64,000 bases of DNA from Desulfovibrio sp. GTDB lineage: Bacteria; Desulfobacterota; Desulfovibrionia; Desulfovibrionales; Desulfovibrionaceae. The position numbers and the translations under genes are program-made. Below the pieces are notes generated by a model that was not told the DNA's origin, ran no database searches, and saw nothing but the letters and a program-made list of their open reading frames with translations. Below are positions 32,361 to 64,000 of the stretch, piece by piece (positions within the stretch are counted from its first letter, which is position 1; each line of letters begins with the position of its first letter). The stretch lies in NCBI GenBank assembly GCA_016208105.1, contig JACQYS010000019.1, forward strand, positions 76,494 through 140,493, written 5' to 3'.

Positions 32361-33308
32361 ATGAACAAGATAATACCACTGCGGCCAAACCGCGACCATA
32401 TTCGCCCGGTCCTGTTGCTGCTTACCTCGCACCGGCTCGACTGCATCCTCCTCTGCCTGCGCAGTCTGGACCGCTTCACCACACTGGGACGATTCAAGAA
32501 AATCTACATCATAGCCAACGCCGTAAGCCCCGACCACGCCGCGATTTTACACCGGTTCATGCACACCCATGAAAACGTGGAGGTAATACATTGCTCCCCC
32601 AGGGGGCTCGTTCCCGCGGTAAACGCCGTTCAGAACGAGATTCTCATCCGCCATATGGACGACGTTATCATCAAGCTGGATGAAGATGTGTTCGTTACGC
32701 CACTGTGGCTGGAGCATCTGCTGGAGGCCTACAGGGTCCACCGGGTGCGCGAAGACATCCCCATCGTCAGCGCGCTTAGTCCGGTAAGTCCTCCGGGACG
32801 CTTTGCCCTGAACCGTTTCCTCAAGGCCAACCATGCCGCGGAAAGGGTTATGTTCGAGGGCGACGTGGTCGAGGAAAACTGGGTCTACCACCGCTGGATG
32901 TGGGAGAAGGTAGTGGGGGAAGGTTTCGTGGAGGCCTGGCTGCGCAGCGGTCCGGCTCCCTATTTCTATCCGGGCTTCTCCAGCACCAACTGTGTCGTCT
33001 ACGACCGTAGGCTCATGGAGTCCATGCTGCCCCTACCGACGGATAAAACGATCGCAGCGACCGGTTCGTACGAAGTGACCCTGAACTCGCTGATGAGCGC
33101 CAGAAACTGGAAGAACGCCGTGGTGAGCGGAGCGATCGCCCATCACTACAGCTTCTCCAAGTGCGAGGAATACCTTCGTTCGCACATGCCCCTGGACATG
33201 GTATGGAGCTACCTGCAGGAATTGTGGCGTCAGGAGCAGATCAGGATCAAGAGCACTGGTTTGCGCAGGGTGAAGCAGGTTGTCAGCATGGCTGGCGCAG
33301 GGGGATAA
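32361..33308 (+). CDS. glycosyltransferase-like protein (GT-A fold, DxD candidate)
   Basis: 315 aa. VLLLLTSHRLDCILLCLRSL...IIKLDEDVFV resembles the GT2 N-terminal Rossmann region plus a DxD motif. This is a weak family call. Confidence 0.55.
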   Translation: MNKIIPLRPNRDHIRPVLLLLTSHRLDCILLCLRSLDRFTTLGRFKKIYIIANAVSPDHAAILHRFMHTHENVEVIHCSPRGLVPAVNAVQNEILIRHMDDVIIKLDEDVFVTPLWLEHLLEAYRVHRVREDIPIVSALSPVSPPGRFALNRFLKANHAAERVMFEGDVVEENWVYHRWMWEKVVGEGFVEAWLRSGPAPYFYPGFSSTNCVVYDRRLMESMLPLPTDKTIAATGSYEVTLNSLMSARNWKNAVVSGAIAHHYSFSKCEEYLRSHMPLDMVWSYLQELWRQEQIRIKSTGLRRVKQVVSMAGAGG

Positions 33309-33331
33309 CCCTCACTCACCACACTCTCTCA

Positions 33332-33369
33332 ATGTCGGCAACTCCCAAGGGAGTTGCCGACATTTTTTT
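33332..33369 (+). terminator. rho-independent terminator
   Basis: 15-bp perfect stem atgtcggcaactccc / gggagttgccgacat with a 2-nt loop, followed by TTTTTTT. It lies 24 nt after the stop of the GT-like gene. Confidence 0.85.
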
Positions 33370-33444
33370 CCTCGCCCCTGGTTGTTGCCGGGCTGTTCCT
33401 GTCGTATAGTTCCCAAAACATTCGAGCCCAACCGGAGGTATGCG

Positions 33445-33642
33445 ATGTCGAGCGAGAGCAAGGAATGGACCTGCCCCAAGTGCAACGCTTCCAACGACCC
33501 GGACTTCACCCACTGCCGCATGTGCGGCGAGCATAATCCCGCGTTGCCGAAGCCTGAAAAGAAATGTTCCTCTTGCGGATTTCTGGCTAGCAAGGAGACA
33601 TGCTGCCCCGTCTGCGGCAGCGATTATTTCCTGAATCTCTGA
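33445..33642 (+). CDS. double zinc-ribbon small protein (65 aa)
   Basis: MSSESKEWTCPKCNASNDPDFTHCRMCGEHNP...KKCSSCGFLASKETCCPVCGSDYF has four CxxC pairs. An RBS ggagg lies 6-7 nt upstream of ATG 33445. Confidence 0.65.
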   Translation: MSSESKEWTCPKCNASNDPDFTHCRMCGEHNPALPKPEKKCSSCGFLASKETCCPVCGSDYFLNL

Positions 33643-35496: not shown

Positions 35497-36354
35497 ATGC
35501 CCAGCGTGGACCTCCATACCCATTCCAACGCCTCGGACGGACAGCTCTCTCCGGCCGAGGTGGTTCGCCTGGCCGCCCAGGCCGGACTCGCCGCCGTGGC
35601 CCTTACCGACCATGACACGCTGGACGGACTGGAGGAGGCCACACAGACCGGGCTGGAACTCGGCATAGAGGTGATCCCCGGATGCGAGTTGTCCGTGGTG
35701 GACAGCGGCCGGGAGCTGCACATCCTGGGGCTGTGGGTCCGCCCGGGCGCAAAGGAACTTGAGACTGCTCTGGCCTCGCTTCGGGAGAGCCGCGACGACC
35801 GCAACAAGCTCATCGTGGAAAAGCTCACCCATCTGGGCATTCCCATCGAATACGATGAGGTGCTGGAGCTGGCCCAAGGGACCGTGGGCAGGCCCCATAT
35901 CGCGCAGATACTTGTGGAGCGCGGCATCGTGCGCGATTTCGACGCGGCCTTCAAACAATACCTGGGGCGCCACGGCCGGGCCTTCGCTCCCAAACGCGAG
36001 CTGTCTCTGGCCACGGCGGTGGACGTGCTCAAGGCCGAAGGAGCAACGGTGGCTCTGGCCCACCCCTATCTGCTTGGAGAAAACGGCCGGTCCATGGAGA
36101 ACCTGTTGCAGCGTTACGCCGGGCTCGGAGTGAACGCCATCGAGGCCTACTACACCGACCACTCCCAGATAAAAACCCGTGAGTACCTTGAATTGGCCCG
36201 GCGACTTGATCTCGGAGTGTGCGGCGGGTCGGATTTCCACGGGGCCATCAAGCCGGGAATCCGGATTGGCGTGGGCAAGGGCAAGCTGGCCGTGCCCGAG
36301 GCGGTTTTAGACGACCTGAAGGAGCGCCGTCGCAATCGTGGACTCTGGGTCTAG
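35497..36354 (+). CDS. PHP-domain phosphoesterase (TrpH/YciV family)
   Basis: VDLHTHSNASDG...ALTDHDT...CGGSDFHG are PHP metal-binding motifs. 285 aa. Confidence 0.88.
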   Translation: MPSVDLHTHSNASDGQLSPAEVVRLAAQAGLAAVALTDHDTLDGLEEATQTGLELGIEVIPGCELSVVDSGRELHILGLWVRPGAKELETALASLRESRDDRNKLIVEKLTHLGIPIEYDEVLELAQGTVGRPHIAQILVERGIVRDFDAAFKQYLGRHGRAFAPKRELSLATAVDVLKAEGATVALAHPYLLGENGRSMENLLQRYAGLGVNAIEAYYTDHSQIKTREYLELARRLDLGVCGGSDFHGAIKPGIRIGVGKGKLAVPEAVLDDLKERRRNRGLWV

Positions 36355-37097
36355 CTTTCCTCGGCCGGATCATCAGGGCTCGGTTCTCCCGCAGCCTGGG
36401 GTCTGAAATCTTCCCTGGCGCTCAGCACCGACACCTTCACCCCGCTCTCCCGGCTCGCAGCGAGCTGGAACACCCTGCCCGCGTGGCCGTAGAAGGCGTC
36501 CACGGGATGGTGGCTTATGTAGAGCACCTGAAGGCCAAGCTTGTCCCCTATGCTGGCGATGAGCCTAGCGAATGTGGGAACCAGTTCAGGGCGGAGCCAG
36601 CAGTCCTGCTCGTCGAGCACCAAAAAACGCCGGTGCTCGTTCGGGTCCAACTGGGCAAGGCCAATGAGCCGAAGTCCCACCGAGAGGATGTTGCACACGG
36701 AGCCCCCCTGCCCATGCAGGATGTCCTCGGTCTGACCCTGATGCTCTATCTCCAGGGTGATATGGAACTTGCCCTGTTTTATTTCCCTGCGGCTGACCAC
36801 CGTGCGGTCCTGCCCCAGGATTTCTCGCACGGCATGGGTGAGATTCGACTCCACTTCTTCCATCAGTTCGCCGAACAACTCCCTGGAGAGCTCTTCCAGC
36901 CGGGCCTGGGCCCTAGGCGCCATGTCCAGAAAATCCTTGACCGACAACAGCTCCTGCCGGACCCGCTGATGCTCCTTGACCAGCGCTTCGGCCAGTCCTT
37001 CCAGGCGGCCGGCCCGTCGCTCCAGGCCGTCGACCTCGGCCAGTAGTTCATCAAGGGTGGCCGAGAGAGGGGAATCGTCTGGTTCAAGAACGTTCAT
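36351..37097 (-). CDS. C-terminal ABC-ATPase lobe of a split Rad50/SbcC-like protein (coiled-coil segment, signature-like motif, Walker B, H-loop)
   Basis: The N-terminal ~90 aa are heptad-rich (LDELLAEVDGLERRAGRLEGLAEALVKEHQRVRQELL...). This is followed by HGQGGSVCNILSVGLRL (degenerate signature), RRFLVLDEQD (Walker B/D-loop) and VLYISHHP (H-loop). There is no Walker A. Confidence 0.7.
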   Translation of the reverse strand: MNVLEPDDSPLSATLDELLAEVDGLERRAGRLEGLAEALVKEHQRVRQELLSVKDFLDMAPRAQARLEELSRELFGELMEEVESNLTHAVREILGQDRTVVSRREIKQGKFHITLEIEHQGQTEDILHGQGGSVCNILSVGLRLIGLAQLDPNEHRRFLVLDEQDCWLRPELVPTFARLIASIGDKLGLQVLYISHHPVDAFYGHAGRVFQLAASRESGVKVSVLSAREDFRPQAAGEPSPDDPAEES

Positions 37098-37191
37098 TTC
37101 GCCCCGGATGGCGCACAGGCCTGACAGCGTAGACGGGCGCAGGGCTTGTACCCAGCATGCGTCTTAATCGGCTAAAGCAGAGGCACATGGG

Positions 37192-37509
37192 CTACCCGGC
37201 GTCCTCAGCCGAATCCTGCTCAAGGGACTTAAGCCCCTGGCGGACAGAGGCTATGTGTTCACGGTATCCGCTCACAAGCCGCTCGTTCTCGGCGCGCATG
37301 GTCTGGAGCTTGGCGCGCAGTTCAGCCGGGTCGGACGTGCCATACTCGGCCAGCGCCTTTTCCTCCAGGGCCTTCATCTCCGCCTGCAGGTGGGCCAGGG
37401 TCTGTTCCGCGCGCACCTGCTCCTCGCGCAGTTTCTCGTATTCACCCTTGAGCTGGCCGAGTTCGCGCTCCAGAGCCCCGTCAGGGCCTTCAGATGTGGT
37501 TCTTGCCAC
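37192..37509 (-). CDS. coiled-coil protein (105 aa), candidate descending coiled-coil arm of the split Rad50-like ATPase
   Basis: ELGQLKGEYEKLREEQVRAEQTLAHLQAEMKALEEKALAEYG...LRAKLQTMRAENERLVSGY is heptad-rich with no other domain. Its start overlaps the nuclease gene end by 20 nt. Confidence 0.55.
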   Translation of the reverse strand: MARTTSEGPDGALERELGQLKGEYEKLREEQVRAEQTLAHLQAEMKALEEKALAEYGTSDPAELRAKLQTMRAENERLVSGYREHIASVRQGLKSLEQDSAEDAG

Positions 37510-38473
37510 CGGCCACCTCCTTGTAAAGTTCCCATATCAGCCCGGCTTCGGGGTGTTCCGGGTTCAGATTGGCCGAAAGAAAATCCTTGAGCCCGAGGGC
37601 CTCTTGCGTGCGCCGCCAGGCAAGCCGTTCCAATCCCTTCAAAAAAAGGGACTTCTTTTCGCCTGCAACGGTTTCAGGCGGAAAGGGCTGGTCCGGGAAG
37701 ACCATTTCAAATGCCAACGCGGGAACAGGCCAACACTCCAGTTCCAGCGCGCCTGGACGCCATACTGACGCGGCCGGGACACGCTCCTTGCTGCGCTTGG
37801 AAAAAGTGAGTCTGGTGATGTTTCCGGGATTGCACCAGCGCGTAGCGCCCGTGACCACCATGGGCTGCGGACGATGGATGTGGCCGTTGATTACCCAATC
37901 CAGACCTGGGATTTCCCGCGGGGAAACCACACGATCCTGAAAATCCGGAAATGTTATGGAGTGGTGGGTGAACCACACGGTGGCCACTGCGCCGTCGCGA
38001 TCCACCTGGCGAGGAAGAGGGGTCCCGTCCGGTGAACCGCCCACCAGAACGGCTCCGGCCGGAGTGTCCAGCCAGAAGGAAGGGCACGGTTCCGCCATGA
38101 GGCGGATCGCACCGGCGGCGTCCAGCACGGCCATGGACACGTCCCGGGTGAACCGGGCCAGGTACTTGTCGTGGTTGCCCACCAACACGGAAGGCCTATG
38201 CGGCCTGAGCAGCTCGATGAGCTCGACCACCAGACCGTTGGGATTCTCCCTGGGCCAGTGGAATAGATCGCCCGCGATGACGGGATGGCACTCAAGTTCA
38301 CGCGCTCTATTCAAGCACGCAGAGAGTTTGCCAAGTATCTGTTCACGATAGCCTTCCAGGCGCTGTCCCGGAGGCGTGGCCGCCACATGCGGGTCCGCAA
38401 TGACGAAAAGGCCCTTGCCAGCGAGCCTAGGGAGTTCCACGGTTCCCAGCCTTTTTGAGGAATCGTTCGGCAT
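37490..38473 (-). CDS. Mre11/SbcD-like calcineurin-fold metallophosphoesterase (nuclease candidate)
   Basis: The motifs appear in canonical order: IADPH (I), IAGDLFH (II, identical to the Mre11-type GDLFH), VGNHD (III), FTHH (IV), INGHIH (V). The start is ATG 38473 or GTG 38440, and both overlap the upstream ATPase ORF. Confidence 0.8.
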   Translation of the reverse strand: MPNDSSKRLGTVELPRLAGKGLFVIADPHVAATPPGQRLEGYREQILGKLSACLNRARELECHPVIAGDLFHWPRENPNGLVVELIELLRPHRPSVLVGNHDKYLARFTRDVSMAVLDAAGAIRLMAEPCPSFWLDTPAGAVLVGGSPDGTPLPRQVDRDGAVATVWFTHHSITFPDFQDRVVSPREIPGLDWVINGHIHRPQPMVVTGATRWCNPGNITRLTFSKRSKERVPAASVWRPGALELECWPVPALAFEMVFPDQPFPPETVAGEKKSLFLKGLERLAWRRTQEALGLKDFLSANLNPEHPEAGLIWELYKEVAGGKNHI

Positions 38474-39659
38474 CGAGCCCGGCCCCGCATAGTGGGCATT
38501 CCTCAGCCTCTTTTAGTCGGATGGAAATGGTCTCGGCCAGAAGCGCGAGGTCCTGCTCCCGCTTATTGAGCCACTCTTTCCCGTTGGCCACACGCGCGCG
38601 GACAGACTCAAGGGATCCAAGCAGCTCCGCCAACGGAGCAGGATCGGCAGTTATAGGAGCCGGGCTTAATGAGGCGAATGCCTCAAGCCTAGCCTTGGCC
38701 TTGGCTGTGCGTGAGCGCAACTCCCCTGTCAGCACAACTGTTGCGGCAAGATCAATCGTTGAAACGACATCAGGAGGCGGGGCAAGAGGGGCCAGAAGTT
38801 CCAGCCCGGCCTGTACGGCATCACGCTTTCGCCCAAGAACGTCCATGGAACGAAGGGTCTCGGCCAGTTCCGCAGCAGGCGCGGGGACAGGCGGTGGCGT
38901 CAGCTTACGCAATCGGCCTGTGCGCGCCTCAAGCGAAGCGGTTTTGGACACAACCGTTTGCATCCGCTCCATGGTGTTTTCGAGTGCAGGGACTCTCGCA
39001 ATGGTCTCACGAATTGCCCGTCCATCTGTCCTCAACCTATCCAAAGAGAGCGATACATCCGGTAGCCCCACCAGTCGGTCAAGGCCAGCCCGTACACGGG
39101 CCGTCTCGTCTTCGAGCTTGCGCGCATCAATCTTGGCCCGGCGTGACCGTTCCCGCAAAAGGTCCTGCATGGCCATAAGGTGGGCGCTCTCCGTGGACGA
39201 GGCCAAGAAGTCCGCCAACAGGGAACCGGGTTTGTCCAAAAGAAAAATCGGGTGACGCTGGTCGCCCAGGTGCACGTCCACCTCGTCGCCTTTGTCGGCC
39301 CCAACAGGACCAAGCTTTAAAAGGCTGGCGACCTCATCAGGAACGGTTCCTCGGCCAAGCTTGGCGTACACTGTGGGTTCTTTGGCTCCGGGGGGGTACA
39401 CCTCGTAGAGGGCGTAAGCCTTGCGGCGCACCCATACGACCCTCCATCCGTCGTCCAGCAGTGCCTCAACCCGGGCCTCGACGGCTCCATGGCGGATGTA
39501 ATGACGCGGAGTGGGATTATTGGCCAGGCAACGAAGGGCTTCCACCACAGCGGACTTTCCCGTGTTGTTGGGCCCGCACAGCACATTGAGGCCCGGCGCC
39601 AGTTCCAGCGTGGTTGCGGCATGGGCCATGAAATCGGTCAGGGTCAGGCGGCGGATCAC
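38427..39659 (-). CDS. N-terminal ABC-ATPase lobe plus ascending coiled coil plus CxxC zinc-hook of a split Rad50/SbcC-like protein
   Basis: GTG start. MIRRLTLTDFMAHAATTLELAPGLNVLCGPNNTGKS (SMC/RecF-type N-terminus and Walker A), a Q-loop-like HLGDQRHPIFLL, about 200 aa of Ala/Leu/Arg/Glu-rich helical region, then EAEECPLCGAGLD 20 residues before the stop. Confidence 0.8.
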   Translation of the reverse strand: MIRRLTLTDFMAHAATTLELAPGLNVLCGPNNTGKSAVVEALRCLANNPTPRHYIRHGAVEARVEALLDDGWRVVWVRRKAYALYEVYPPGAKEPTVYAKLGRGTVPDEVASLLKLGPVGADKGDEVDVHLGDQRHPIFLLDKPGSLLADFLASSTESAHLMAMQDLLRERSRRAKIDARKLEDETARVRAGLDRLVGLPDVSLSLDRLRTDGRAIRETIARVPALENTMERMQTVVSKTASLEARTGRLRKLTPPPVPAPAAELAETLRSMDVLGRKRDAVQAGLELLAPLAPPPDVVSTIDLAATVVLTGELRSRTAKAKARLEAFASLSPAPITADPAPLAELLGSLESVRARVANGKEWLNKREQDLALLAETISIRLKEAEECPLCGAGLDAERFLKKAGNRGTP

Positions 39660-39664
39660 GGGTG

Positions 39665-40834
39665 CTATGGAGCTCCCAGCCCAGAGGAGTCAGCCCGTCC
39701 CGGAAGGAGTGGCAGGCGCAGAGTAAAGACCGTTCCCTCGGGCTGGCGTGTTGTGAAGCTCACTTCGCCTTCGAGGTAGCGCTCGCTTAAAAGCTTCATC
39801 CCGTAAGTGCCCAGGCCCCGGCCGGAGCCTTTGGTGGAGAAGTTCCGCTTGAAGATCCGCAAGCGTACGTCATCCTCCATCACGGCAGAATTTCGTACCT
39901 GAAAGACCACCTCGGTTCCATCCGGGCTGCACGACAACTGCACCCCTTCGCCGGAGTTCGAGGCCTCCAGGGCATTTTTGACCATGTTTACGAGAACCCG
40001 CTTGACCAGAGCGTAGTCGCTTACGAACTCAACATCCCGGCTGTGCGGCAGGACACTTACGCTCTTGCTCTCGGACTGTGCCAGACTGGCACCCATTCTG
40101 GCCACCACGCCGAGAACTTCGAGGCTTTGCAGTGGGACGAACACCGGGGTGAGCTCATTGTTTTCGGCGGCAAGCAGGTCCCTCTGCCCCTGCAACTCGT
40201 CCACCAGGTGAGCCAAGGTGGAGTTTATGAATTCCGCGTCCGGTTTGAGCTTGTCGGGCACCTCCAGGCACAAAATGCCAGAGAGCCCGCGCAGCCCCCC
40301 CACCGTATTGAGAATATCGTGGAAGAAAAGACGCTCCAAGGTCCGGCGGCGTTTCATGTCGCTCTGATCCTGAATGCAAAAAAGCGTGTACTGGTGCCCC
40401 TCCACCTCGATTGGGGAAGAGCTTACCTGCAGGTCCAACGCTTCGATCCCCTTCATTCCCCGGCGCAGCAGGTTGCACTCTTGGACGTTTTTAACTCCCT
40501 CCAGTCCCATGATGATGGAACGGATGGCGCCGCATTTGGAACAGAACTCGGTGGAACCGCATCCCCCCGGCTCCTGGCCGGCGTGGACGCAGCCGAAGGC
40601 TTCACCGGGACGTTTGCCGAGAATATGATCCATGTCCCGCCGGGTGGCCGCCAAGGCTTGCGCATTGGCCAGAACAATCTGCCGGCGACGGTTCAAAACC
40701 ACAAGCACCACCGGTATGGCATCCAAGGCTTGGGAAATAAAATGGCGGCAGAGAAGAGAATGTTGCATCTGAATCTGCTCAAAAGTATCCCTTTCGAGCG
40801 GAGCCAGGCATGCTGAAACAGCTTGAACTTCCAT
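39665..40834 (-). CDS. cytoplasmic PAS-like sensor histidine kinase with Cys cluster
   Basis: The sensor region has FGCVHAGQEPGGCGSTEFCSKCGAI (4 Cys). It also has an H-box LFFHDILN, an N-box VLVNMVKNALEA and G-box TKGSGRGLGTYG. There is no TM segment and no adjacent response regulator. Confidence 0.85.
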   Translation of the reverse strand: MEVQAVSACLAPLERDTFEQIQMQHSLLCRHFISQALDAIPVVLVVLNRRRQIVLANAQALAATRRDMDHILGKRPGEAFGCVHAGQEPGGCGSTEFCSKCGAIRSIIMGLEGVKNVQECNLLRRGMKGIEALDLQVSSSPIEVEGHQYTLFCIQDQSDMKRRRTLERLFFHDILNTVGGLRGLSGILCLEVPDKLKPDAEFINSTLAHLVDELQGQRDLLAAENNELTPVFVPLQSLEVLGVVARMGASLAQSESKSVSVLPHSRDVEFVSDYALVKRVLVNMVKNALEASNSGEGVQLSCSPDGTEVVFQVRNSAVMEDDVRLRIFKRNFSTKGSGRGLGTYGMKLLSERYLEGEVSFTTRQPEGTVFTLRLPLLPGRADSSGLGAP

Positions 40835-57935: not shown

Positions 57936-60332
57936 TTGAAAGCTAAAAGCATATTTATCCCGGCCGAGGAGAACGCCTCACCCGTGCCAGGAGAATCAGT
58001 AATCCTAATGATCATAGTTGTCATAGGCTTTATACTGCGTTTCGCCTGGCTGGATTCCCCAACCCTTATGCGTGACGAGGCTCTCGTGCTGTTGGCAGCG
58101 GAGCAAAGCCCGCTCTTCATCCTCATTCGCGCCCTTGCCACTGATGCGCACCCCCCATACTTCTATTACCTATCCAAGTTACTCCTGCTTTTCGGCCATT
58201 CCGATTTCGCAACCCGTTTCTTTCCAGCCCTGGCCGGAACTGCAGCAGTCTTTTTTCTGCATCGCTTTGCGGCACGCCTGATCTCACGTGAATCCGCACT
58301 TATTGCGGCAGCATTGCTGGCCGGGTATTTTCTGCACATCCAAATTTCGCGTACAGTGAGACCCCATCCTTACATCGTCTGCCTCACCATCGTTTCCCTT
58401 TCCTGGCTCCTGGATTTTTTGCGCGCCCCTTGCCGCAAAAATCTGATAAAGCTTACCTGTCTCAATCTGGCACTTTTACTCTTCCACTTCAACGCGCTGC
58501 TTGTTGTGGGCTCACAGATGTTCCTCGTAGGATGTCTACTTCCCGGATCGTGGCGGTCGCAAATCCGATCTAACCTCATACAATTTCTAATGATAAGTTG
58601 CGTGTCTATGGCTGTAAATCTTCCCATGTTCATCTACAGACTGGGAAAATTCCCTGGATTTGACCTGAACATCTCCATGCTGTGGACCCTGGAACGAAGT
58701 ATCACCAATTTGAACAAATTGATGGCAATCTTCCCCTCCGAGACTTCAAATATAGCCGGGTGGCTATTGTTCGGTTTGGGCATGGGGCTTCTTTTTTCTA
58801 AGAATTGTTTTGCGTTCTTTTTTCTTGCTTCTAGCATCTTTCTTCCGATTATTGCTCTTATTCTCGCCAAGTACGGATTATTCTATGAACCTTGGCATCT
58901 ATCTTTCATCATTCCATGCTTGTTGACGGTTTGTGCACACTCTCTTGTATGGCTCTTACGCATTCAATTTCTTGTCAAGGCAGCGGCTCTCGCCATCCCA
59001 ATTTGCGCTGCTGTGACCATCTTTCTGTCACGCTACGATGCACTCTATTCTATACAAGCTTCAATCTTCGGATATGAGGAATGCAACAAGAAGATCGCCT
59101 TAGAGTTGCCACGCGGGTTGGGAAATCCACATTCTGTTTTGTTCAACCAAATTTTTGAGCTCAACTTTGTCAATTGGTACACTCGCCAGTTCTCATCACT
59201 TAATCTTAACCACAATTCCCTCACGCCAAAAGATTCCAATGTAAACCTTGCCCTGGTGGCCAGTGGCCCCATCTATTCTGACGCGGACAACCCAGTTGAG
59301 GTTGCCCGGAGGGCCCAACAACTTCTGACTGACTTCGGCAAGGAATACAGCATTGACACACTCTCTTGTTCAACAATCCACCGTTGGAATTACGCCAGAT
59401 CTCCAGGCATCCGCTTGAACTCATATCCAGCAAAAACGAGTTTTACGGCCTATGCACCCGAGTTTCTGAAGAAGGTCTGGCAGGCCCAGGACGTGCAAAT
59501 ATACTTATCTCCCTTGGCGCATGTGATTTTCCCTTCCGCCTTTGACACCCCAGGAAGCTTCACTGTCCGATATCAGAACGACACACCTGTTCCAACCACA
59601 GATATAACCCTTGATCTGCACTACGCATTGGAAGGAAGTGGCAACAGTATGGTTGTGACTTGTTCCTTTGATGACGCTCTAGCACAGGAAGTGTTCTCCT
59701 CTTCGGCCCAGGCCGGAACACATCCTAAACGAATTATTCTACGCGCACCCAACCCATATCGAACCGTGGATGTGACTTGCACCATGACCTCCTCTAGTCT
59801 CACTCCTAGTTTCTACACCATGAGCAACGCAGTGAGTTTCAGCAAGATGGAACTGACCATCTTGCCTACTCCGCCAGAGGAGTTCCTCCTTGACCTACCA
59901 GTTGCCATACGTGACCTATCTCAGGTTGAAAGCACACCCGAGGGCTCCTATCGTTGGGGAAGCGGGCCAGAAACAACACTTCGTTTTAACGTGCCAAAAT
60001 CTGGACGCATACGTTTAGAAATGGGACTAAACAACCCAATCCCTGGGCAAGGATTCACGGTGCTTATCAACGATTCCATTGTAAAGCGCCTGGAGAACTT
60101 ACCCGCAGCCCCTTGGCTCCAGAACGCTAAAAGCGTACTTCTCGATGTCGACGTTAAGGCAGGAGATAATACGTTGGTTCTGCGCTATGACCTCTGGAAC
60201 GGTAAACCCCAAGCTTCACCTGCTGTCAACTTCGCACCAGGAGACGGTCGGGCTTTGGCCATGGCCTTCACCAGCTTGCGCTTACTTGCCCCAGAATTTG
60301 CAGGGACATCCCTGTCTGTTGAAGACTATTAG
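57936..60332 (+). CDS. PMT/ArnT-like (GT39/GT-C) polytopic glycosyltransferase with ~380-aa extracytoplasmic C-terminal domain
   Basis: About 12 TM segments. The first loop (RFAWLDSPTLMRDEALVLL...DAHPPYFYYL) resembles the GT-C/PMT_2 DE-containing loop. A TTG start at 57936 has gggggа-like purine run ggggga 8 nt upstream; an alternative ATG is at 58008. GC is low. Confidence 0.7.
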   Translation: MKAKSIFIPAEENASPVPGESVILMIIVVIGFILRFAWLDSPTLMRDEALVLLAAEQSPLFILIRALATDAHPPYFYYLSKLLLLFGHSDFATRFFPALAGTAAVFFLHRFAARLISRESALIAAALLAGYFLHIQISRTVRPHPYIVCLTIVSLSWLLDFLRAPCRKNLIKLTCLNLALLLFHFNALLVVGSQMFLVGCLLPGSWRSQIRSNLIQFLMISCVSMAVNLPMFIYRLGKFPGFDLNISMLWTLERSITNLNKLMAIFPSETSNIAGWLLFGLGMGLLFSKNCFAFFFLASSIFLPIIALILAKYGLFYEPWHLSFIIPCLLTVCAHSLVWLLRIQFLVKAAALAIPICAAVTIFLSRYDALYSIQASIFGYEECNKKIALELPRGLGNPHSVLFNQIFELNFVNWYTRQFSSLNLNHNSLTPKDSNVNLALVASGPIYSDADNPVEVARRAQQLLTDFGKEYSIDTLSCSTIHRWNYARSPGIRLNSYPAKTSFTAYAPEFLKKVWQAQDVQIYLSPLAHVIFPSAFDTPGSFTVRYQNDTPVPTTDITLDLHYALEGSGNSMVVTCSFDDALAQEVFSSSAQAGTHPKRIILRAPNPYRTVDVTCTMTSSSLTPSFYTMSNAVSFSKMELTILPTPPEEFLLDLPVAIRDLSQVESTPEGSYRWGSGPETTLRFNVPKSGRIRLEMGLNNPIPGQGFTVLINDSIVKRLENLPAAPWLQNAKSVLLDVDVKAGDNTLVLRYDLWNGKPQASPAVNFAPGDGRALAMAFTSLRLLAPEFAGTSLSVEDY

Positions 60333-61887: not shown

Positions 61888-63474
61888 TCAACGTGGTTGT
61901 TTAAAAAAGATGCTCCCGTCCTTTTGGAAGAGTTGGGCGCCGCTACCTATAAGTCTGACTCTTACGGTTGTATCGTTGGGGTTAAGTTTGTCAGCAGAGA
62001 AGCCGTAGCGAGCCCCGACAGGCGACCATTGTCCATCGTCTTGATACTTCACCATATTTGCAAGGGGAACCCAGGCCCCCTCCAAAAATGCCTCCACCGT
62101 GACCCACCCTCTGTTGGAGAAGATTCTGGGGAAACATGCCAGCACCCCGTTTGTGTTCTCCAGAACTAGGCGCAAAGTGACCACCCCTTCTTCATCAGAA
62201 TTGTGGGGAGTTAATTCGCACCAACCATCCTCATCCGTGTGACCAATGACAATATTTTGCGTCTCAATGTCTCGCGCGAGGACGGGCTTATCCGTACTTC
62301 GTGGGCGTCCGTAGCCAACGAAGTGCTCTCCCCAGGCAAAACGAAAGGCAAAGTGGGCGTCCACTTGGTCGGATGCGGGCAGGGTGCAGTCGTTCAGAAA
62401 CTCAGCTAGAAATTTGTTTGTCTGCAATTCAGCGAATATATGTCTGGCAACAAAGAAGTCAGAATATGGAGTATAATGCATTTCATCAGTGAAGACCCTA
62501 TAGAGTAGAGGAGAGCGATCACTAAGAGCATCAATGAGAATTTGAAGGTCGACCAGGGGCGCGTCGAGCTTACGGGAAATCTCATTGTTTATTCTGCTCA
62601 CGTAGCTTCGTCCAAACTGGTAAAGTTGAATATTAAAATCATAAGGGATACGCGCCGCTTCCGACTGCGAGGAAGCTTTGTCGCGCGTAATCCAACCATA
62701 ATTAACCAGTGTAACCCCGATGCCCTTAGCTTGGCGCTCTCTGATGAAAGATTCTATGTTACCTCGGAACCCAAAGGCCTCCATTTTTTTTTCCATGATG
62801 TCATTCAATATCAGGGTGCTAACTGCCTGCTTGGCAAGACGATAGAATGCTAGGCGCTCGAAGGTGTGAAGCACCTGGGCCAGGATGGACGTTTGCCTTG
62901 GGGTGGTGTTAATAAGTTTTGTGAAGATTTCGCGTTGCTTTATGGCCTCATTGATATCTTCAATAGCGGCGGCAGCAACTACGTCATTGAGCCCATCCAT
63001 AAGTAAGTACATGTCCGGAGACAAAGAATCCAATTCTGTTTCAGCTCGCAGACGTGTATGCCAACTATGATATCCCATCATACCGGCGTTAATGATCTCA
63101 ACCTTCTTATTGCAATTAGCAAGCGCATAATCGAACAAGGATTGAAGAACGGGAGGATAGGAATCTAGCTTTGAGTTGTAGACGCCCAAGGTAGTGGATC
63201 CACCGATGCAGATGATCCGAAAGGTACCCGGAGGTTTGGCAATAGACACCACGTGCCCGGCAAATAATCTGCTCTGCTGGTCGATGTTGGACAGCTGAGA
63301 GACGAGCCTATAGCCTAGTTCGTCGTCCAGTACAGCGATGTCCTTAAAGGCATCAGGCAATTTGGCTTTGAACGTGGCGGGGAGAGGTGAAAGAAAACGT
63401 ACGCACAATTCAAGGCCACCGAAAAAAAGTACTAGCGAAAGGACCGCAAGAGCAACATTGGAAAGTATTTTCAT
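61888..63474 (-). CDS. membrane-anchored SGNH/GDSL-type hydrolase with extra C-terminal domain
   Basis: N-terminal TM, then SGNH blocks: ICIGGSTTLG (I, Ser), NAGMMGY (II), LMDGLNDV (III, GxND) and TDEMHYT (V, DxxH). There is a ~170-aa C-terminal domain of unknown fold. GC is low. Confidence 0.7.
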   Translation of the reverse strand: MKILSNVALAVLSLVLFFGGLELCVRFLSPLPATFKAKLPDAFKDIAVLDDELGYRLVSQLSNIDQQSRLFAGHVVSIAKPPGTFRIICIGGSTTLGVYNSKLDSYPPVLQSLFDYALANCNKKVEIINAGMMGYHSWHTRLRAETELDSLSPDMYLLMDGLNDVVAAAAIEDINEAIKQREIFTKLINTTPRQTSILAQVLHTFERLAFYRLAKQAVSTLILNDIMEKKMEAFGFRGNIESFIRERQAKGIGVTLVNYGWITRDKASSQSEAARIPYDFNIQLYQFGRSYVSRINNEISRKLDAPLVDLQILIDALSDRSPLLYRVFTDEMHYTPYSDFFVARHIFAELQTNKFLAEFLNDCTLPASDQVDAHFAFRFAWGEHFVGYGRPRSTDKPVLARDIETQNIVIGHTDEDGWCELTPHNSDEEGVVTLRLVLENTNGVLACFPRIFSNRGWVTVEAFLEGAWVPLANMVKYQDDGQWSPVGARYGFSADKLNPNDTTVRVRLIGSGAQLFQKDGSIFFKQPR

Positions 63475-63749
63475 CTGATAATCATTCGAACGTGGGAATG
63501 AAAACTGTCATCATCGGTCGTCTATTGAACCAAATAACCAAGGCCGTCAAACGGGAAGAATGACTGTCATTCTCCATCGAGACCATATCAAGGAATACAT
63601 TCAACCCTCGATTGTCAAAGGCCGGAACATTATCCGTTTTGAAAACCTATACATAGTCACTCCCCTTACGGCCTGCAGATTATGTTCTCATTGAGATTTT
63701 CCGATAGTACTTACCACATCATCTATGCTGATTTCTTTGGCCCCTCTCC

Positions 63750-64000
63750 TCACAAAAATCCTTCAAACTCGGACGAATCCATCACTTCCGTCTTCAACAA
63801 TTTTTGGGCCACAGCGTCGAGCTTGTCCTTGTGCTCCTCAAGGATGCCCCGCACCCTGCCGCGGGCGGACTCCAGGATTTCCTTCACCTCGGCATCGAGC
63901 TTGGCCGCTGTCGATTCGCTGTATTCCTTGCCCACCAGGGGCGCCTGTTCGGGGTTCAGGAACATGGGCCTGGCCTGCCGCGGGTAGGTGGAAAGCCCCA
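63750..64000 (-). CDS. ftsH: ATP-dependent zinc metalloprotease FtsH, C-terminal end only (N-terminus off the right edge)
   Basis: ...PMFLNPEQAPLVGKEYSESTAAKLDAEVKEILESARGRVRGILEEHKDKLDAVAQKLLKTEVMDSSEFEGFL matches the FtsH C-terminal helical region. The frame is open to position 64000. Confidence 0.85.
   Translation of the reverse strand, partial: GLSTYPRQARPMFLNPEQAPLVGKEYSESTAAKLDAEVKEILESARGRVRGILEEHKDKLDAVAQKLLKTEVMDSSEFEGFL

What the first reader, a model, noticed from the sequence alone, without database searches (positions are those of the whole stretch)
36351..39659. Mre11/SbcD-like nuclease gene nested inside a Rad50/SbcC-like ATPase that is split into three ORFs
Four co-directional, overlapping or tightly spaced minus-strand genes together look like one Rad50-Mre11 machine in pieces.
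- ORF A (38427-39659) has the SMC/RecF-type N-terminus, Walker A (GPNNTGKS), a Q-loop-like motif, about 200 aa of helical Ala/Leu/Arg/Glu-rich sequence and a CPLCG motif near its end.
- The next gene (37490-38473) has all five calcineurin-fold nuclease motifs in Mre11 style (DPH, IAGDLFH, GNHD, THH, GHIH).
- A 105-aa pure coiled-coil ORF follows (37192-37509).
- The last ORF (36351-37097) begins as coiled coil and ends with a degenerate signature motif, Walker B (FLVLDEQD) and an H-loop (ISHH), but has no Walker A.

In canonical SbcCD/Mre11-Rad50 systems the ATPase is one polypeptide and the nuclease gene lies beside it. I do not know of a described family with this nested, three-piece arrangement. 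ABC/SMC ATPase plus nuclease pairs are also a recurrent theme in anti-phage systems such as Lamassu, Gabija, PARIS and Septu, so a defence or DNA-end-surveillance role is conceivable. The local GC looks native, not island-like.
Basis: partly seen in the sequence, partly recalled or inferred. Interest (0 to 1): 0.8.

Follow-up and report, generated by a model that had tools for sequence, protein, structure and literature searches.

The report
Split Rad50-like ATPase with Mre11-like nuclease
Four adjacent genes in a Desulfovibrio-type bacterium encode a conserved relative of the Mre11-Rad50/SbcCD DNA-end nuclease whose ATPase motor is built from two separate proteins, and its nearest relatives carry the same motor as one chain with the two halves in swapped order.

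Summary
All four minus-strand ORFs and every quoted motif are at the stated coordinates.

- **Not a decayed gene.** 68 of 80 related genome loci hold all four genes in the same order (Desulfovibrionaceae, Desulfacinum, Chlamydiae and Planctomycetota MAGs). The other 12 are partial, mostly cut by contig ends. The frame of the last gene relative to the coiled-coil gene is not fixed.
- **Two-chain ATPase head.** The model of ORF A best matches the N-terminal half of the P. furiosus Rad50 head. The model of the last ORF (C) best matches C-terminal halves of SMC and Rad50 heads.
- **Nuclease.** It keeps all metallophosphoesterase motifs. Its best solved-structure matches are Mre11/SbcD, but weakly.
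- **The "three pieces, nuclease nested" reading is only partly right.** The 105-aa coiled-coil protein is also a separate subunit where the ATPase is one chain. Those relatives, on megaplasmids and mobile-element-like contigs, are circularly permuted (C lobe, then A) in the order CC | C~A | nuclease, a cyclic rotation of this operon. Bacillus phage 0305phi8-36 has a third layout.
- **New detail.** A's arm holds an exact 39-residue repeat of variable copy number and ends in a terminal CxxC.

Most likely function: ATP-dependent DNA-end or hairpin processing, inferred only. I judge it a new variant of a known kind.

The parts
38427..39659 (-). Gene A (410 aa): N-terminal half of a Rad50/SMC-like ABC ATPase head, followed by a helical arm and a terminal CxxC
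   Evidence: Pfam AAA_15, AAA_23 and AAA_27 on residues 1-50/81. NCBIfam Rad50, ASRP, RecN and RecF N-termini. AF2 model with pLDDT 74.7. Best Foldseek match is the P. furiosus Rad50 N-terminal segment 1f2u_C, E=1e-5. 100% identical to P0241, 'AAA family ATPase', MAG Desulfovibrio sp..
39552..39575 (-). Walker A / P-loop GPNNTGKS (A residues 29-36)
   Evidence: Translation. G29, N31, N32, G34, K35 and S36 are invariant in 40 orthologues.
39240..39272 (-). Q-loop region HLGDQRHPIFL (A residues 130-140)
   Evidence: Translation. H130, Q134 and P137 are invariant.
38907..39194 (-). Long helix of A (residues 156-251, 96 aa): proposed ascending strand of the head-proximal coiled coil
   Evidence: AF2 secondary structure H156-251. 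Its pairing with the C helix is inferred, not shown.
38556..38906 (-). Three copies of a 39-residue helix-plus-proline-turn repeat (A residues 252-290, 291-329, 330-368)
   Evidence: Autocorrelation peak exactly at 39 residues over 63 orthologues. Lengths of A step by about 39 aa, from 394/410 to 754 aa. Helices 262-288, 302-329 and 341-385 are separated by Pro-rich loops.
38484..38498 (-). CPLCG: zinc-hook-like CxxC about 20 residues from the C-terminus of A
   Evidence: C388, P389, C391 and G392 are invariant. Present in 62 of 63 orthologues at 16-41 residues from the end. Weak Pfam Rad50_zn_hook E=0.016 and NCBIfam arcadin-4 hook region E=1.3e-4.
37490..38440 (-). Gene N (316 aa from GTG 38440; the longest ORF starts at ATG 38473): Mre11/SbcD-like binuclear metallophosphoesterase
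   Evidence: Pfam Metallophos E=1.2e-5. D27, H29, D69, N100, H101, H170, H171, H198 and H200 are invariant. Best PDB profile hits are T. maritima SbcD/Mre11 at E=1e-3 and archaeal Mre11 at E=0.01-0.02. Start codon.
37192..37509 (-). Gene CC (105 aa): two helices around a conserved EYGTSDP turn; a separate conserved subunit
   Evidence: Only generic coiled-coil matches. Found next to C, or to the C~A fusion, in all three gene arrangements: hmmsearch E=1e-5 to 8e-23. Start overlaps the end of N by 20 nt.
36351..37097 (-). Gene C (248 aa): one long helix followed by the C-terminal half of the ABC ATPase head
   Evidence: No Pfam or NCBIfam model. AF2 pLDDT 78.9, helix H10-93 then an alpha/beta domain. 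Foldseek: B. subtilis SMC head C-half 5h66_B E=4.6e-7; P. furiosus Rad50 C-halves 9a9j_B, 1ii8_B and 1f2u_B around 1e-5. Profile vs PDB: cohesin Smc head E=1.3e-3.
36819..37070 (-). Long helix of C (residues 10-93, 84 aa): proposed descending strand of the head-proximal coiled coil
   Evidence: AF2 secondary structure, pLDDT 84-97. Its length is close to A helix 156-251. The pairing is inferred.
36669..36719 (-). Signature-motif region LHGQGGSVCNILSVGLR (C residues 127-143)
   Evidence: Translation. G129, G131, G132, S133, V134, N136, S139, L142 and R143 are invariant across phyla.
36594..36635 (-). Walker B and D-loop HRRFLVLDEQDCWL (C residues 155-168)
   Evidence: Translation. D162, E163, Q164, D165, C166 and W167 are invariant. 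Aligned to the Walker B/D-loop of cohesin Smc and ABC transporter NBDs.
36504..36530 (-). H-loop QVLYISHHP (C residues 190-198)
   Evidence: Translation. Q190, H196 and H197 are invariant.

Best explanation
The locus encodes a conserved four-subunit relative of the Mre11-Rad50/SbcCD nuclease.

**The parts**
- The ABC ATPase head is assembled from two polypeptides.
  - A supplies the N lobe: Walker A and Q-loop.
  - C supplies the C lobe: signature motif, Walker B, D-loop and H-loop.
- N is an Mre11-style Mn-dependent phosphodiesterase with all metal ligands intact.
- CC is a two-helix accessory subunit. It is always encoded next to C, apart from one intervening gene in the phage.

**Inferred architecture**
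- The 96-residue helix after A's lobe pairs antiparallel with the 84-residue helix that opens C. This would make the head-proximal coiled coil, as in Rad50/SMC.
- Beyond that, A continues alone through 39-residue helix-proline modules (3 here, up to about 12 elsewhere).
- A ends in a CxxC that probably joins two A chains through a shared zinc, as a Rad50 hook does.

**Inferred mechanism**
- ATP binding engages two A.C heads on DNA.
- This positions the N dimer to cut DNA ends, hairpins or blocked termini, for repair or recombination.

**Origin**
The gene order A|N|CC|C is a cyclic rotation of the order CC|C~A|N seen in relatives whose ATPase is one circularly permuted chain. The split is therefore an operon-level circular permutation of one ancestral module set, not gene decay.

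Shown: the homology of each part, the conservation of the order, and the existence of the permuted and phage arrangements. Inferred: complex formation, arm geometry, zinc dimerisation, substrate and cellular role.
For: **Two halves of one head**
- A's N-terminus hits AAA_15, AAA_23, AAA_27 and SMC_N, and the Rad50, RecN and RecF N-termini.
- The model of A best matches the separately expressed N-terminal segment of P. furiosus Rad50 (1f2u_C, E=1e-5).
- The model of C best matches C-terminal segments of two-chain SMC and Rad50 head constructs (5h66_B 4.6e-7; 9a9j_B, 1ii8_B and 1f2u_B around 1e-5).
- The C profile hits the cohesin Smc head and ABC NBD Walker B/D-loop/H-loop region.
- The motif sets are complementary and invariant.

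**Nuclease**
- Pfam Metallophos hit and invariant ligands.
- Best solved-structure relatives are SbcD/Mre11.

**Conservation**
- 68 of 80 loci hold all four genes, all in the order A, N, CC, C, with abutting or overlapping ends.
- The frame of C relative to CC is spread 35/17/16 over the three offsets.

**Relatives**
- The C profile matches the first ~200 residues of many 570-780 aa proteins whose remainder is A, including the terminal CPxC.
- Their operons read CC | C~A | N. This holds on three metagenome contigs and on the Bosea megaplasmid.
- Phage 0305phi8-36 has gp8 = N~A, gp7 = CC and gp5 = C.
- Standalone C-like proteins of about 200 aa also occur in phages.

**Arm**
- A 39-residue period and quantised lengths of A.
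- CC and C have constant length.

**Context**
- Native GC and housekeeping neighbours.

**Precedent (own knowledge)**
- The P. furiosus Rad50 catalytic domain in 1F2T/1F2U was reconstituted from two co-expressed chains.
Against: - Nothing here shows that the four proteins bind one another.
- The single-chain models are only moderate (pLDDT 75-79, pTM 0.35-0.43).
- Sequence-level matches of C and N to solved Rad50/SMC and Mre11 structures are weak (E about 1e-3). All curated Rad50/SbcC models score far below their cut-offs.
- The terminal CxxC has coiled coil on one side only and scores below the Pfam hook threshold.
- The copy number of the 39-residue repeat varies while CC and C do not, so what the distal arm pairs with is unexplained.
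- Two loci (L005, L040) have no C within about 5.7 kb downstream of CC.
- The DNA-end-processing role rests on homology alone. I could not check whether these genomes also carry a canonical sbcCD.
Confidence: 0.7

Rival explanations
1. Colinear three-piece Rad50. A, CC and C are consecutive fragments of one ancestral Rad50. CC plus the C helix would together form the descending coiled-coil strand that pairs with the whole helical arm of A, and the CxxC would sit at a true apex.
For: - The order A ... CC, C is colinear with Rad50.
- CC lies directly upstream of C or of C~A in the chromosomal and permuted arrangements. In the phage, gp6 lies between them.
- In the window protein, A's helical length after residue 156 is about 196 aa. 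That is not far from CC (about 81 aa helical, read from the sequence and its conserved turn) plus the C helix (84 aa).
- A weak hook-like match lies at the end of A.
Against: - CC stays a separate gene even where the ATPase is a single chain, and no CC~C fusion was found.
- A varies from 394 to 754 aa in 39-residue steps, while CC (94-121 aa in clean calls) and C (213-260 aa) do not co-vary.
- CC has a conserved G-x-x-D-P helix break that suggests a hairpin.
- The single-chain relatives join the end of C to the start of A, not CC to C.
Confidence: 0.25
2. An anti-phage or anti-plasmid defence system. An SMC/Rad50-like sensor would be coupled to a nuclease effector, by analogy with Lamassu, Wadjet, Gabija or PARIS.
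For: - The ATPase-plus-nuclease pairing is a common defence theme.
- A's P-loop region hits LmuB and GajA models.
- The permuted relatives sit on megaplasmids and mobile-element-like contigs, next to a Lar-type restriction-alleviation gene, a DNA methylase and a polyvalent ART-PolyVal protein.
Against: - No PADLOC model covers N, CC or C. The A hits are confined to the first ~50 residues, except one weak LmuB alignment.
- The chromosomal four-gene form has native GC and housekeeping neighbours in several genera and phyla.
- Identity falls off roughly with taxonomic distance within Desulfovibrionaceae.
- Carriage by phages and plasmids fits element-encoded recombination or repair functions as well as it fits defence.
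Confidence: 0.15
3. A decayed or rearranged sbcCD pseudogene, or chance ORFs in GC-rich DNA.
For: GC-rich DNA produces many long spurious ORFs here, for example the overlapping antisense ORFs. The ATPase is in pieces.
Against: - The same four genes occur in the same order in 68 loci across several phyla, with invariant catalytic residues.
- The frame relation between CC and C is variable, so there is no shared frameshift.
- The separate C family has 1641 homologues.
Confidence: 0.01

Closest known systems
SbcCD / Mre11-Rad50 (E. coli SbcCD, T. maritima and P. furiosus MR)
   Same: - An ABC ATPase head with Walker A, Q-loop, signature motif, Walker B, D-loop and H-loop.
- A helical arm leaving the head and a CxxC motif.
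- An adjacent, translationally coupled metallophosphoesterase with the GDLFH/GNHD motif style.
- The best structural matches for both head halves and for the nuclease.
   Different: - The head is encoded by two genes at opposite ends of the operon.
- The CxxC is at a chain terminus, not at the apex of a hairpin.
- The arm carries an exact 39-residue repeat of variable copy number.
- There is a fourth, conserved ~100-aa two-helix subunit.
- The nearest single-chain relatives are circularly permuted.
- Curated Rad50/SbcC models score far below their cut-offs.
Bacillus phage 0305phi8-36 gp8, listed as an Mre11/Rad50 fusion lacking one P-loop NTPase segment (Yoshida et al. 2011, PMC3175470)
   Same: The same four modules by profile search: gp8 contains N (E=9e-20) and A (E=5e-42), gp7 is CC (E=1.3e-5) and gp5 is C (E=2e-7). 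The ATPase head is likewise split.
   Different: N is fused to the front of A, and an extra gene (gp6) lies between CC and C. The published description did not link gp5 or gp7 to gp8. The host is a jumbo phage, not a chromosome.
Circularly permuted single-chain relatives (e.g. Bosea sp. ANAM02 megaplasmid WP_173049974.1 'AAA family ATPase' with WP_173049976.1 and metallophosphoesterase WP_173049972.1)
   Same: Homologous C lobe, A lobe, arm and terminal CPxC. The same CC and N partners, in the same cyclic gene order.
   Different: C and A are one polypeptide, with the C lobe first. They sit mostly on megaplasmids and mobile-element-like contigs. In databases they are annotated only generically.
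Lamassu LmuB (Rad50/SMC-like defence ATPase)
   Same: A Rad50-like head with a coiled coil and no hinge. One LmuB model aligns weakly along A (PDLC03859, E=4e-8, residues 3-396).
   Different: No LmuA effector or LmuC partner. LmuB is a single chain. N, CC and C have no Lamassu hits.
Engineered two-chain Rad50 and SMC head constructs (PDB 1F2T/1F2U, 1II8, 5H66)
   Same: A and C match the N- and C-terminal chains of these constructs respectively. This shows that a head made of two polypeptides can fold.
   Different: Those are laboratory truncations. Here the split is natural and conserved.

Membership tests
Rad50/SbcC ATPase | ABC-type head with Walker A, Q-loop, signature motif, Walker B, D-loop and H-loop | tested here: met
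   All motifs are present and invariant, but they are divided between A and C. The folds match Rad50 and SMC head halves.
Rad50/SbcC ATPase | One polypeptide whose N- and C-terminal head halves are joined by a long intramolecular antiparallel coiled coil | tested here: not met
   Two genes in 68 of 68 complete loci. The single-chain relatives are permuted, C lobe then A lobe, joined by a short linker.
Rad50/SbcC ATPase | Zinc hook: CxxC at the coiled-coil apex, flanked by helix on both sides | tested here: inconclusive
   The CPxC is conserved but lies 16-41 residues from the C-terminus. Pfam Rad50_zn_hook gives E=0.016, 15.5 bits against a cut-off of 24.3. NCBIfam arcadin-4 hook region gives E=1.3e-4. 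Zinc binding is not testable here.
Rad50/SbcC ATPase | Passes the curated family models (NCBIfam Rad50 equivalogs) | tested here: not met
   Best Rad50 model scores 38.9 bits against a cut-off of 700, on residues 2-42 only.
Mre11/SbcD nuclease | Binuclear metallophosphoesterase with the motifs DxH, GDxxH, GNH[DE], H and GHxH | tested here: met
   IADPHV, IAGDLFH, GNHD, FTHH and NGHIH. The ligands are invariant in 16 orthologues. Pfam Metallophos scores above its cut-off.
Mre11/SbcD nuclease | Closer to Mre11/SbcD than to other metallophosphoesterases; capping domain and Rad50-binding helices | tested here: inconclusive
   The top PDB profile hits are SbcD/Mre11, but only at E=1e-3 to 0.02 and mainly over motifs I-III. 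LpxH follows at E=0.1. There is no NCBIfam hit. The conserved C-terminal ~90 residues were not modelled.
SMC-kleisin complexes (Smc-ScpAB, MukBEF, Wadjet) | Hinge dimerisation domain plus kleisin and KITE partners | tested here: not met
   No hinge lies between the head halves. The CC hits to JetC models are generic coiled-coil matches at E>=1e-3. No kleisin or KITE hit.
Lamassu | LmuB with an LmuA effector (and LmuC) | tested here: not met
   Only A hits LmuB, mostly on the P-loop. N, CC and C have no Lamassu hit.
Other PADLOC defence systems (Gabija, Septu, PARIS, Dnd/Pbe, MADS) | Full-length match of the components to the system models | tested here: not met
   The GajA, PtuA and AriA hits cover only residues 1-50 of A. 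The best hits for C are mad8 at E=1.7e-3 and DndD at E=2.1e-3. N has none.

The most novel reading that the evidence does not exclude
This is one face of an unnamed, widespread clade of Rad50-like machines found on chromosomes, megaplasmids and phages. In this clade the arm is not a closed hairpin: polypeptide termini lie at the far end of the arm, and the arm is built from a tunable number of 39-residue modules. A dedicated two-helix subunit is obligatory. The clade tolerates three gene and chain topologies: a split head, a circularly permuted single chain, and a nuclease-ATPase fusion with a separate C lobe. If arm continuity is truly dispensable, the complex may load on or release DNA differently from SbcCD/MR, and it would be a natural test of what Rad50/SMC arms are for.
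Probability: 0.35. Interest if true: 0.75.

Novelty: new variant of a known kind. Interest (0 to 1): 0.6.

Why it matters
Rad50 and the SMC proteins are defined by a head made from the two ends of one chain, joined by a long folded-back coiled coil. How the arm and its apex transmit ATP-driven changes is still debated.

Here nature has produced the same head as two proteins, as a circularly permuted single chain, and as a nuclease fusion with a detached C lobe. All three come with the same small partner and the same nuclease. This offers ready-made variants for testing whether arm continuity, arm length (set in 39-residue quanta) and a closed hook are needed for DNA-end recognition and cutting.

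It also has three practical consequences:
- It gives a family assignment to two proteins that have no Pfam model (C and CC).
- It explains the "missing" ATPase segment of the phage 0305phi8-36 Mre11/Rad50 fusion.
- It flags an overlooked SbcCD-like activity in many sulfate reducers, megaplasmids and phages.

Tried and rejected
- **Multimer-style prediction.** I built a glycine-linked, orthologue-paired A+CC+C alignment to fold the assembly as one chain. Complex formation therefore remains inferred.
- **Two artefacts of my own ORF-extension script, now retracted.**
  - An apparent CC~C fusion in L019 was caused by a tblastn alignment running across a stop codon. Stop-to-stop segments show two ORFs.
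  - An apparent 509-aa C in L011 is in fact 258 aa.
- **Defence libraries.** PADLOC gave no system-level hit.
- **Direct sequence search of C against PDB.** It gave only an OLD-family Walker B match at E=0.08. The profile and fold searches were needed.
- **CC against PDB.** Nothing meaningful.
- **Promoter and terminator scan.** No signal above the shuffled expectation inside the operon.
- **Link to the upstream histidine kinase.** It is adjacent in the closest relatives and some Solidesulfovibrio loci, but it is inverted in others and absent elsewhere. I rejected it as part of the system.
- **Genes inserted between CC and C.** In the two of six such loci that I inspected they are unrelated cargo: a membrane-protein ORF in L015 and a 541-aa ORF in L038.
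- **Literature.** Searches found no description of a split or permuted Rad50-like system with these partners. The most relevant survey, Krishnan et al. 2020 (NAR, classification of ABC ATPases), is not held. Prior description there cannot be excluded.
- **Direction of evolution.** A neighbour-joining tree of C domains groups the split forms into one clade. Midpoint rooting on a top-150 sample cannot settle whether split or fused came first.

Full report
**1.

One search lists four co-directional minus-strand ORFs at the stated coordinates:
- A: 38427-39659, 410 aa
- Nuclease N: 37490-38473, 327 aa
- Coiled-coil protein CC: 37192-37509, 105 aa
- C: 36351-37097, 248 aa

- In A: GPNNTGKS, a Q-loop (HLGDQRHPIFL) and CPLCG.
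- In N: IADPHV, IAGDLFH, GNHD, FTHH and NGHIH.
- In C: GQGGSVCNILSVGLR, HRRFLVLDEQDCWL and QVLYISHHP, with no P-loop.

GC content (0.617) matches the surrounding sequence.

One refinement concerns the start of N. Orthologues of N begin at the residues equivalent to VELPRL (P0001 and P0003, 316 aa), and a GTG lies at 38440. N therefore probably starts there and overlaps the stop codon of A by 14 nt. The start of CC overlaps the end of N by 20 nt. A 94-nt gap separates CC from C.

**2. These are working genes, and the arrangement is conserved**

A is 100% identical to a protein of a Desulfovibrio sp. MAG. The closest named relatives are Fundidesulfovibrio species.

I scanned one genome per species with a nuclease profile. 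This returned 80 loci. Searching them with the four window proteins gave these results:
- 68 loci hold all four genes, and all 68 have the order A, N, CC, C on one strand.
- Of the 12 partial loci, nine are cut by contig ends and one (L038) holds an A that tblastn missed but the profile finds.
- L005 and L040 lack C within about 5.7 kb downstream of CC.

The set spans many Desulfovibrionaceae genera, Desulfacinum, three Chlamydiae-type MAGs, a Planctomycetota MAG and a marine TARA contig.

Gene ends abut or overlap by a few bases. The reading frame of C relative to CC is spread 35/17/16 over the three possible offsets, so no shared frameshift is being read as a split. Catalytic residues are invariant in all the alignments. 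The pseudogene and chance-ORF readings are excluded.

**3. What each part is**

*A.* Residues 1-50/81 match the N-terminal P-loop region of AAA_15, AAA_23, AAA_27 and SMC_N, and of Rad50, RecN, RecF and archaeal SMC-related proteins. An AlphaFold2 model (pLDDT 74.7) has these elements:
- a beta-rich lobe;
- a 96-residue helix (156-251);
- three further helices separated by proline-rich loops;
- the CxxC near the C-terminus.

Its best structural matches are the separately expressed N-terminal segment of P. furiosus Rad50 (1f2u_C, E=1e-5), followed by Smc5/6, RecN and RecF heads.

*C.* It has no Pfam or NCBIfam model. Its orthologue profile hits a cohesin Smc head and ABC-transporter NBDs over the Walker B, D-loop and H-loop (E=1.3e-3). 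Its model (pLDDT 78.9) is an 84-residue helix followed by an alpha/beta domain. The best matches are C-terminal chains of two-chain head constructs:
- B. subtilis SMC 5h66_B at 4.6e-7;
- P. furiosus Rad50 9a9j_B, 1ii8_B and 1f2u_B at around 1e-5.

A and C therefore carry complementary halves of one Rad50/SMC-type head.

*N.* It passes the Pfam Metallophos threshold. Its best solved-structure relatives are T. maritima SbcD/Mre11 and archaeal Mre11, but weakly (E=1e-3 to 0.02).

*CC.* It gives only generic coiled-coil matches. It consists of two helical stretches around a conserved EYGTSDP turn, visible in the consensus.

**4. The surprise: the closest relatives are circularly permuted**

I searched 1.84 billion representative proteins with the C profile. 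It found standalone C proteins of about 220-290 aa. It also found many 570-780 aa proteins that match C in their first ~200 residues.

Pfam and BLAST show that the remainder of these long proteins is A. For example, in P0408 (623 aa):
- residues 5-192 match C at 38% identity;
- residues 221-608 match A over its full length at 28% identity, including a terminal FCPLCG.

So the nearest single-chain relatives have the C lobe first and the N lobe second.

Their operons read CC | C~A | N. This holds on three independent metagenome contigs and on a RefSeq megaplasmid of Bosea. Profile searches confirm the CC and N partners at E=7e-12 to 2e-16 and E=1e-54 to 1e-59. That order is a cyclic rotation of A | N | CC | C.

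A third layout occurs in Bacillus phage 0305phi8-36:
- gp8 = N fused to A;
- gp7 = CC;
- gp6 = unknown;
- gp5 ("chromosome segregation ATPase", 236 aa) = C.

Yoshida et al. 2011 had listed gp8 as an Mre11/Rad50 fusion in which one P-loop NTPase segment "was not observed" (PMC3175470). My results suggest gp5 is that segment.

PHROGs has separate phage families for an A-like "exonuclease" and a C-like "ATPase". Standalone C-like folds of about 200 aa are the top viral structural hits.

Across all three layouts A stays next to N. CC lies directly upstream of C or C~A in the split and permuted layouts, and is separated from C only by gp6 in the phage.

A neighbour-joining tree of C domains puts all but two short outliers of the split forms (25 of 27 standalone, 5 of 7 intermediate-length) into one clade of 30, among 91 fused forms. 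This suggests a single fission or fusion event. The root, and hence the direction, is not settled.

**5. The arm**

Lengths of A fall into classes about 39 residues apart: 394/410, 446-452, 486-490, 526-533, 681 and 754 aa. Averaged over 63 orthologues, the self-similarity of the region after residue 200 has a single sharp peak at exactly 39 residues (0.33 against a background near -0.7).

The window protein has three such units (252-290, 291-329, 330-368). Each unit is a helix plus a Pro-rich turn.

CC and C do not change in length. The repeat region as a whole therefore cannot be matched one-to-one by a fixed-length partner. Helix A156-251 (96 aa) and helix C10-93 (84 aa) are of matching length, and they are the natural candidates for the head-proximal antiparallel coiled coil. 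This pairing is an inference.

The CPxC lies 16-41 residues from the end of A in 62 of 63 orthologues. It matches hook models only weakly. I read it as a half-hook that could share a zinc between two A chains. This is untested.

**6. What it most likely does**

All ATPase and nuclease catalytic residues are conserved, and the closest folds are Rad50/SMC and Mre11/SbcD. The best-supported mechanism is therefore an ATP-gated DNA-end or hairpin nuclease of the SbcCD/MR kind.

The context of the four-gene form favours a cellular repair or recombination role over defence:
- It has native GC.
- Its neighbours are ordinary genes in several genera and phyla: a symporter, glutamine synthetase, MoeA, MurJ, NrfD and PAS kinases.
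- Identity falls off roughly with taxonomic distance.
- No PADLOC system matches.

The permuted and phage forms travel on megaplasmids, mobile-element-like contigs and a jumbo phage. Some sit beside LigD, RecQ, a polyvalent ART protein or restriction-alleviation genes. That fits element-encoded recombination or end-processing functions, and it leaves a minority possibility of a role in conflict between genetic elements.

**7. Comparison with known systems, and verdict**

It works like Mre11-Rad50/SbcCD, but it fails two defining features of the Rad50 family:
- a single chain with an intramolecular coiled coil;
- the curated family models.

It meets the hook criterion only ambiguously. SMC-kleisin, Lamassu and the other defence families are not met (see the membership table).

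In the literature I could search, I found no description of this split or permuted family or of its CC subunit.

I rate it a new variant of a known kind. It needs correcting on the "third piece", on what the intact relatives look like, and on defence.

Interest is moderate to high (0.6). The biochemistry is probably familiar, but the natural split, permuted and fused series, together with the modular open-ended arm, is unusual and experimentally useful.

Noticed in passing
window 39665-40834 (minus strand): A 389-aa histidine kinase with a Cys-rich sensor stretch (CVHAGQEPGGCGSTEFCSKCG) ends 5 nt upstream of gene A on the same strand, so it may be co-transcribed. It is adjacent in the closest relatives (L001-L004, L037), inverted in L011 and L021, and absent elsewhere. 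It is probably not part of the system.
   Followed up: partly
window 58001-60000 and 62001-64000: GC drops to 0.486-0.492 against about 0.60 for the rest of the window, with strong negative GC skew at 58-60 kb. This may be foreign or RNA-gene DNA.
   Followed up: no
window 33280-33642 (plus strand): A 120-aa ORF with several CxxC pairs (CPKCN...CRMCG...CSSCG...CPVCG), which looks like a double zinc-ribbon protein.
   Followed up: no
L012, L015, L026, L038, L053, L058 (between CC and C): Six loci carry 0.9-2.2 kb of extra DNA between CC and C. In L015 it is a 303-aa multi-pass membrane ORF that looks CPBP-protease-like by eye. In L038 it is a 541-aa ORF. The split apparently tolerates unrelated cargo inside the operon.
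   Followed up: partly
L005 (1518 onward) and L040 (7249 onward): No C gene lies within about 5.7 kb downstream of CC, although A, N and CC are intact. In L005 the next gene looks like a glutamyl-tRNA synthetase. C may be unlinked or lost in these genomes.
   Followed up: partly
L087 3201-9353 and L088 (TARA marine contigs): A variant of the split operon in which C (521 aa) carries a ~300-aa C-terminal extension with no Pfam match and is followed by a further 528-596 aa gene of unknown function. Five such extended C proteins cluster together in the C-domain tree.
   Followed up: partly
L081 184-810: In this permuted-type locus the protein upstream of C~A is 208 aa long and contains two tandem CC domains (hmmsearch, residues 35-97 and 135-205). 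No nuclease gene follows. The neighbours are PilM/N/O, a topoisomerase and a primase-helicase, which looks like a conjugative element.
   Followed up: partly
L077 3670-5940: The Planctomycetota orthologue of A (754 aa, about 12 repeat units) is the only one of 63 in which my pattern C[PA].C found no match near the C-terminus.
   Followed up: no
L090 6597-7313 (phage 0305phi8-36 gp6): A 238-aa protein of unknown function sits between the CC homologue gp7 and the C homologue gp5. It has no counterpart in the bacterial operons.
   Followed up: no
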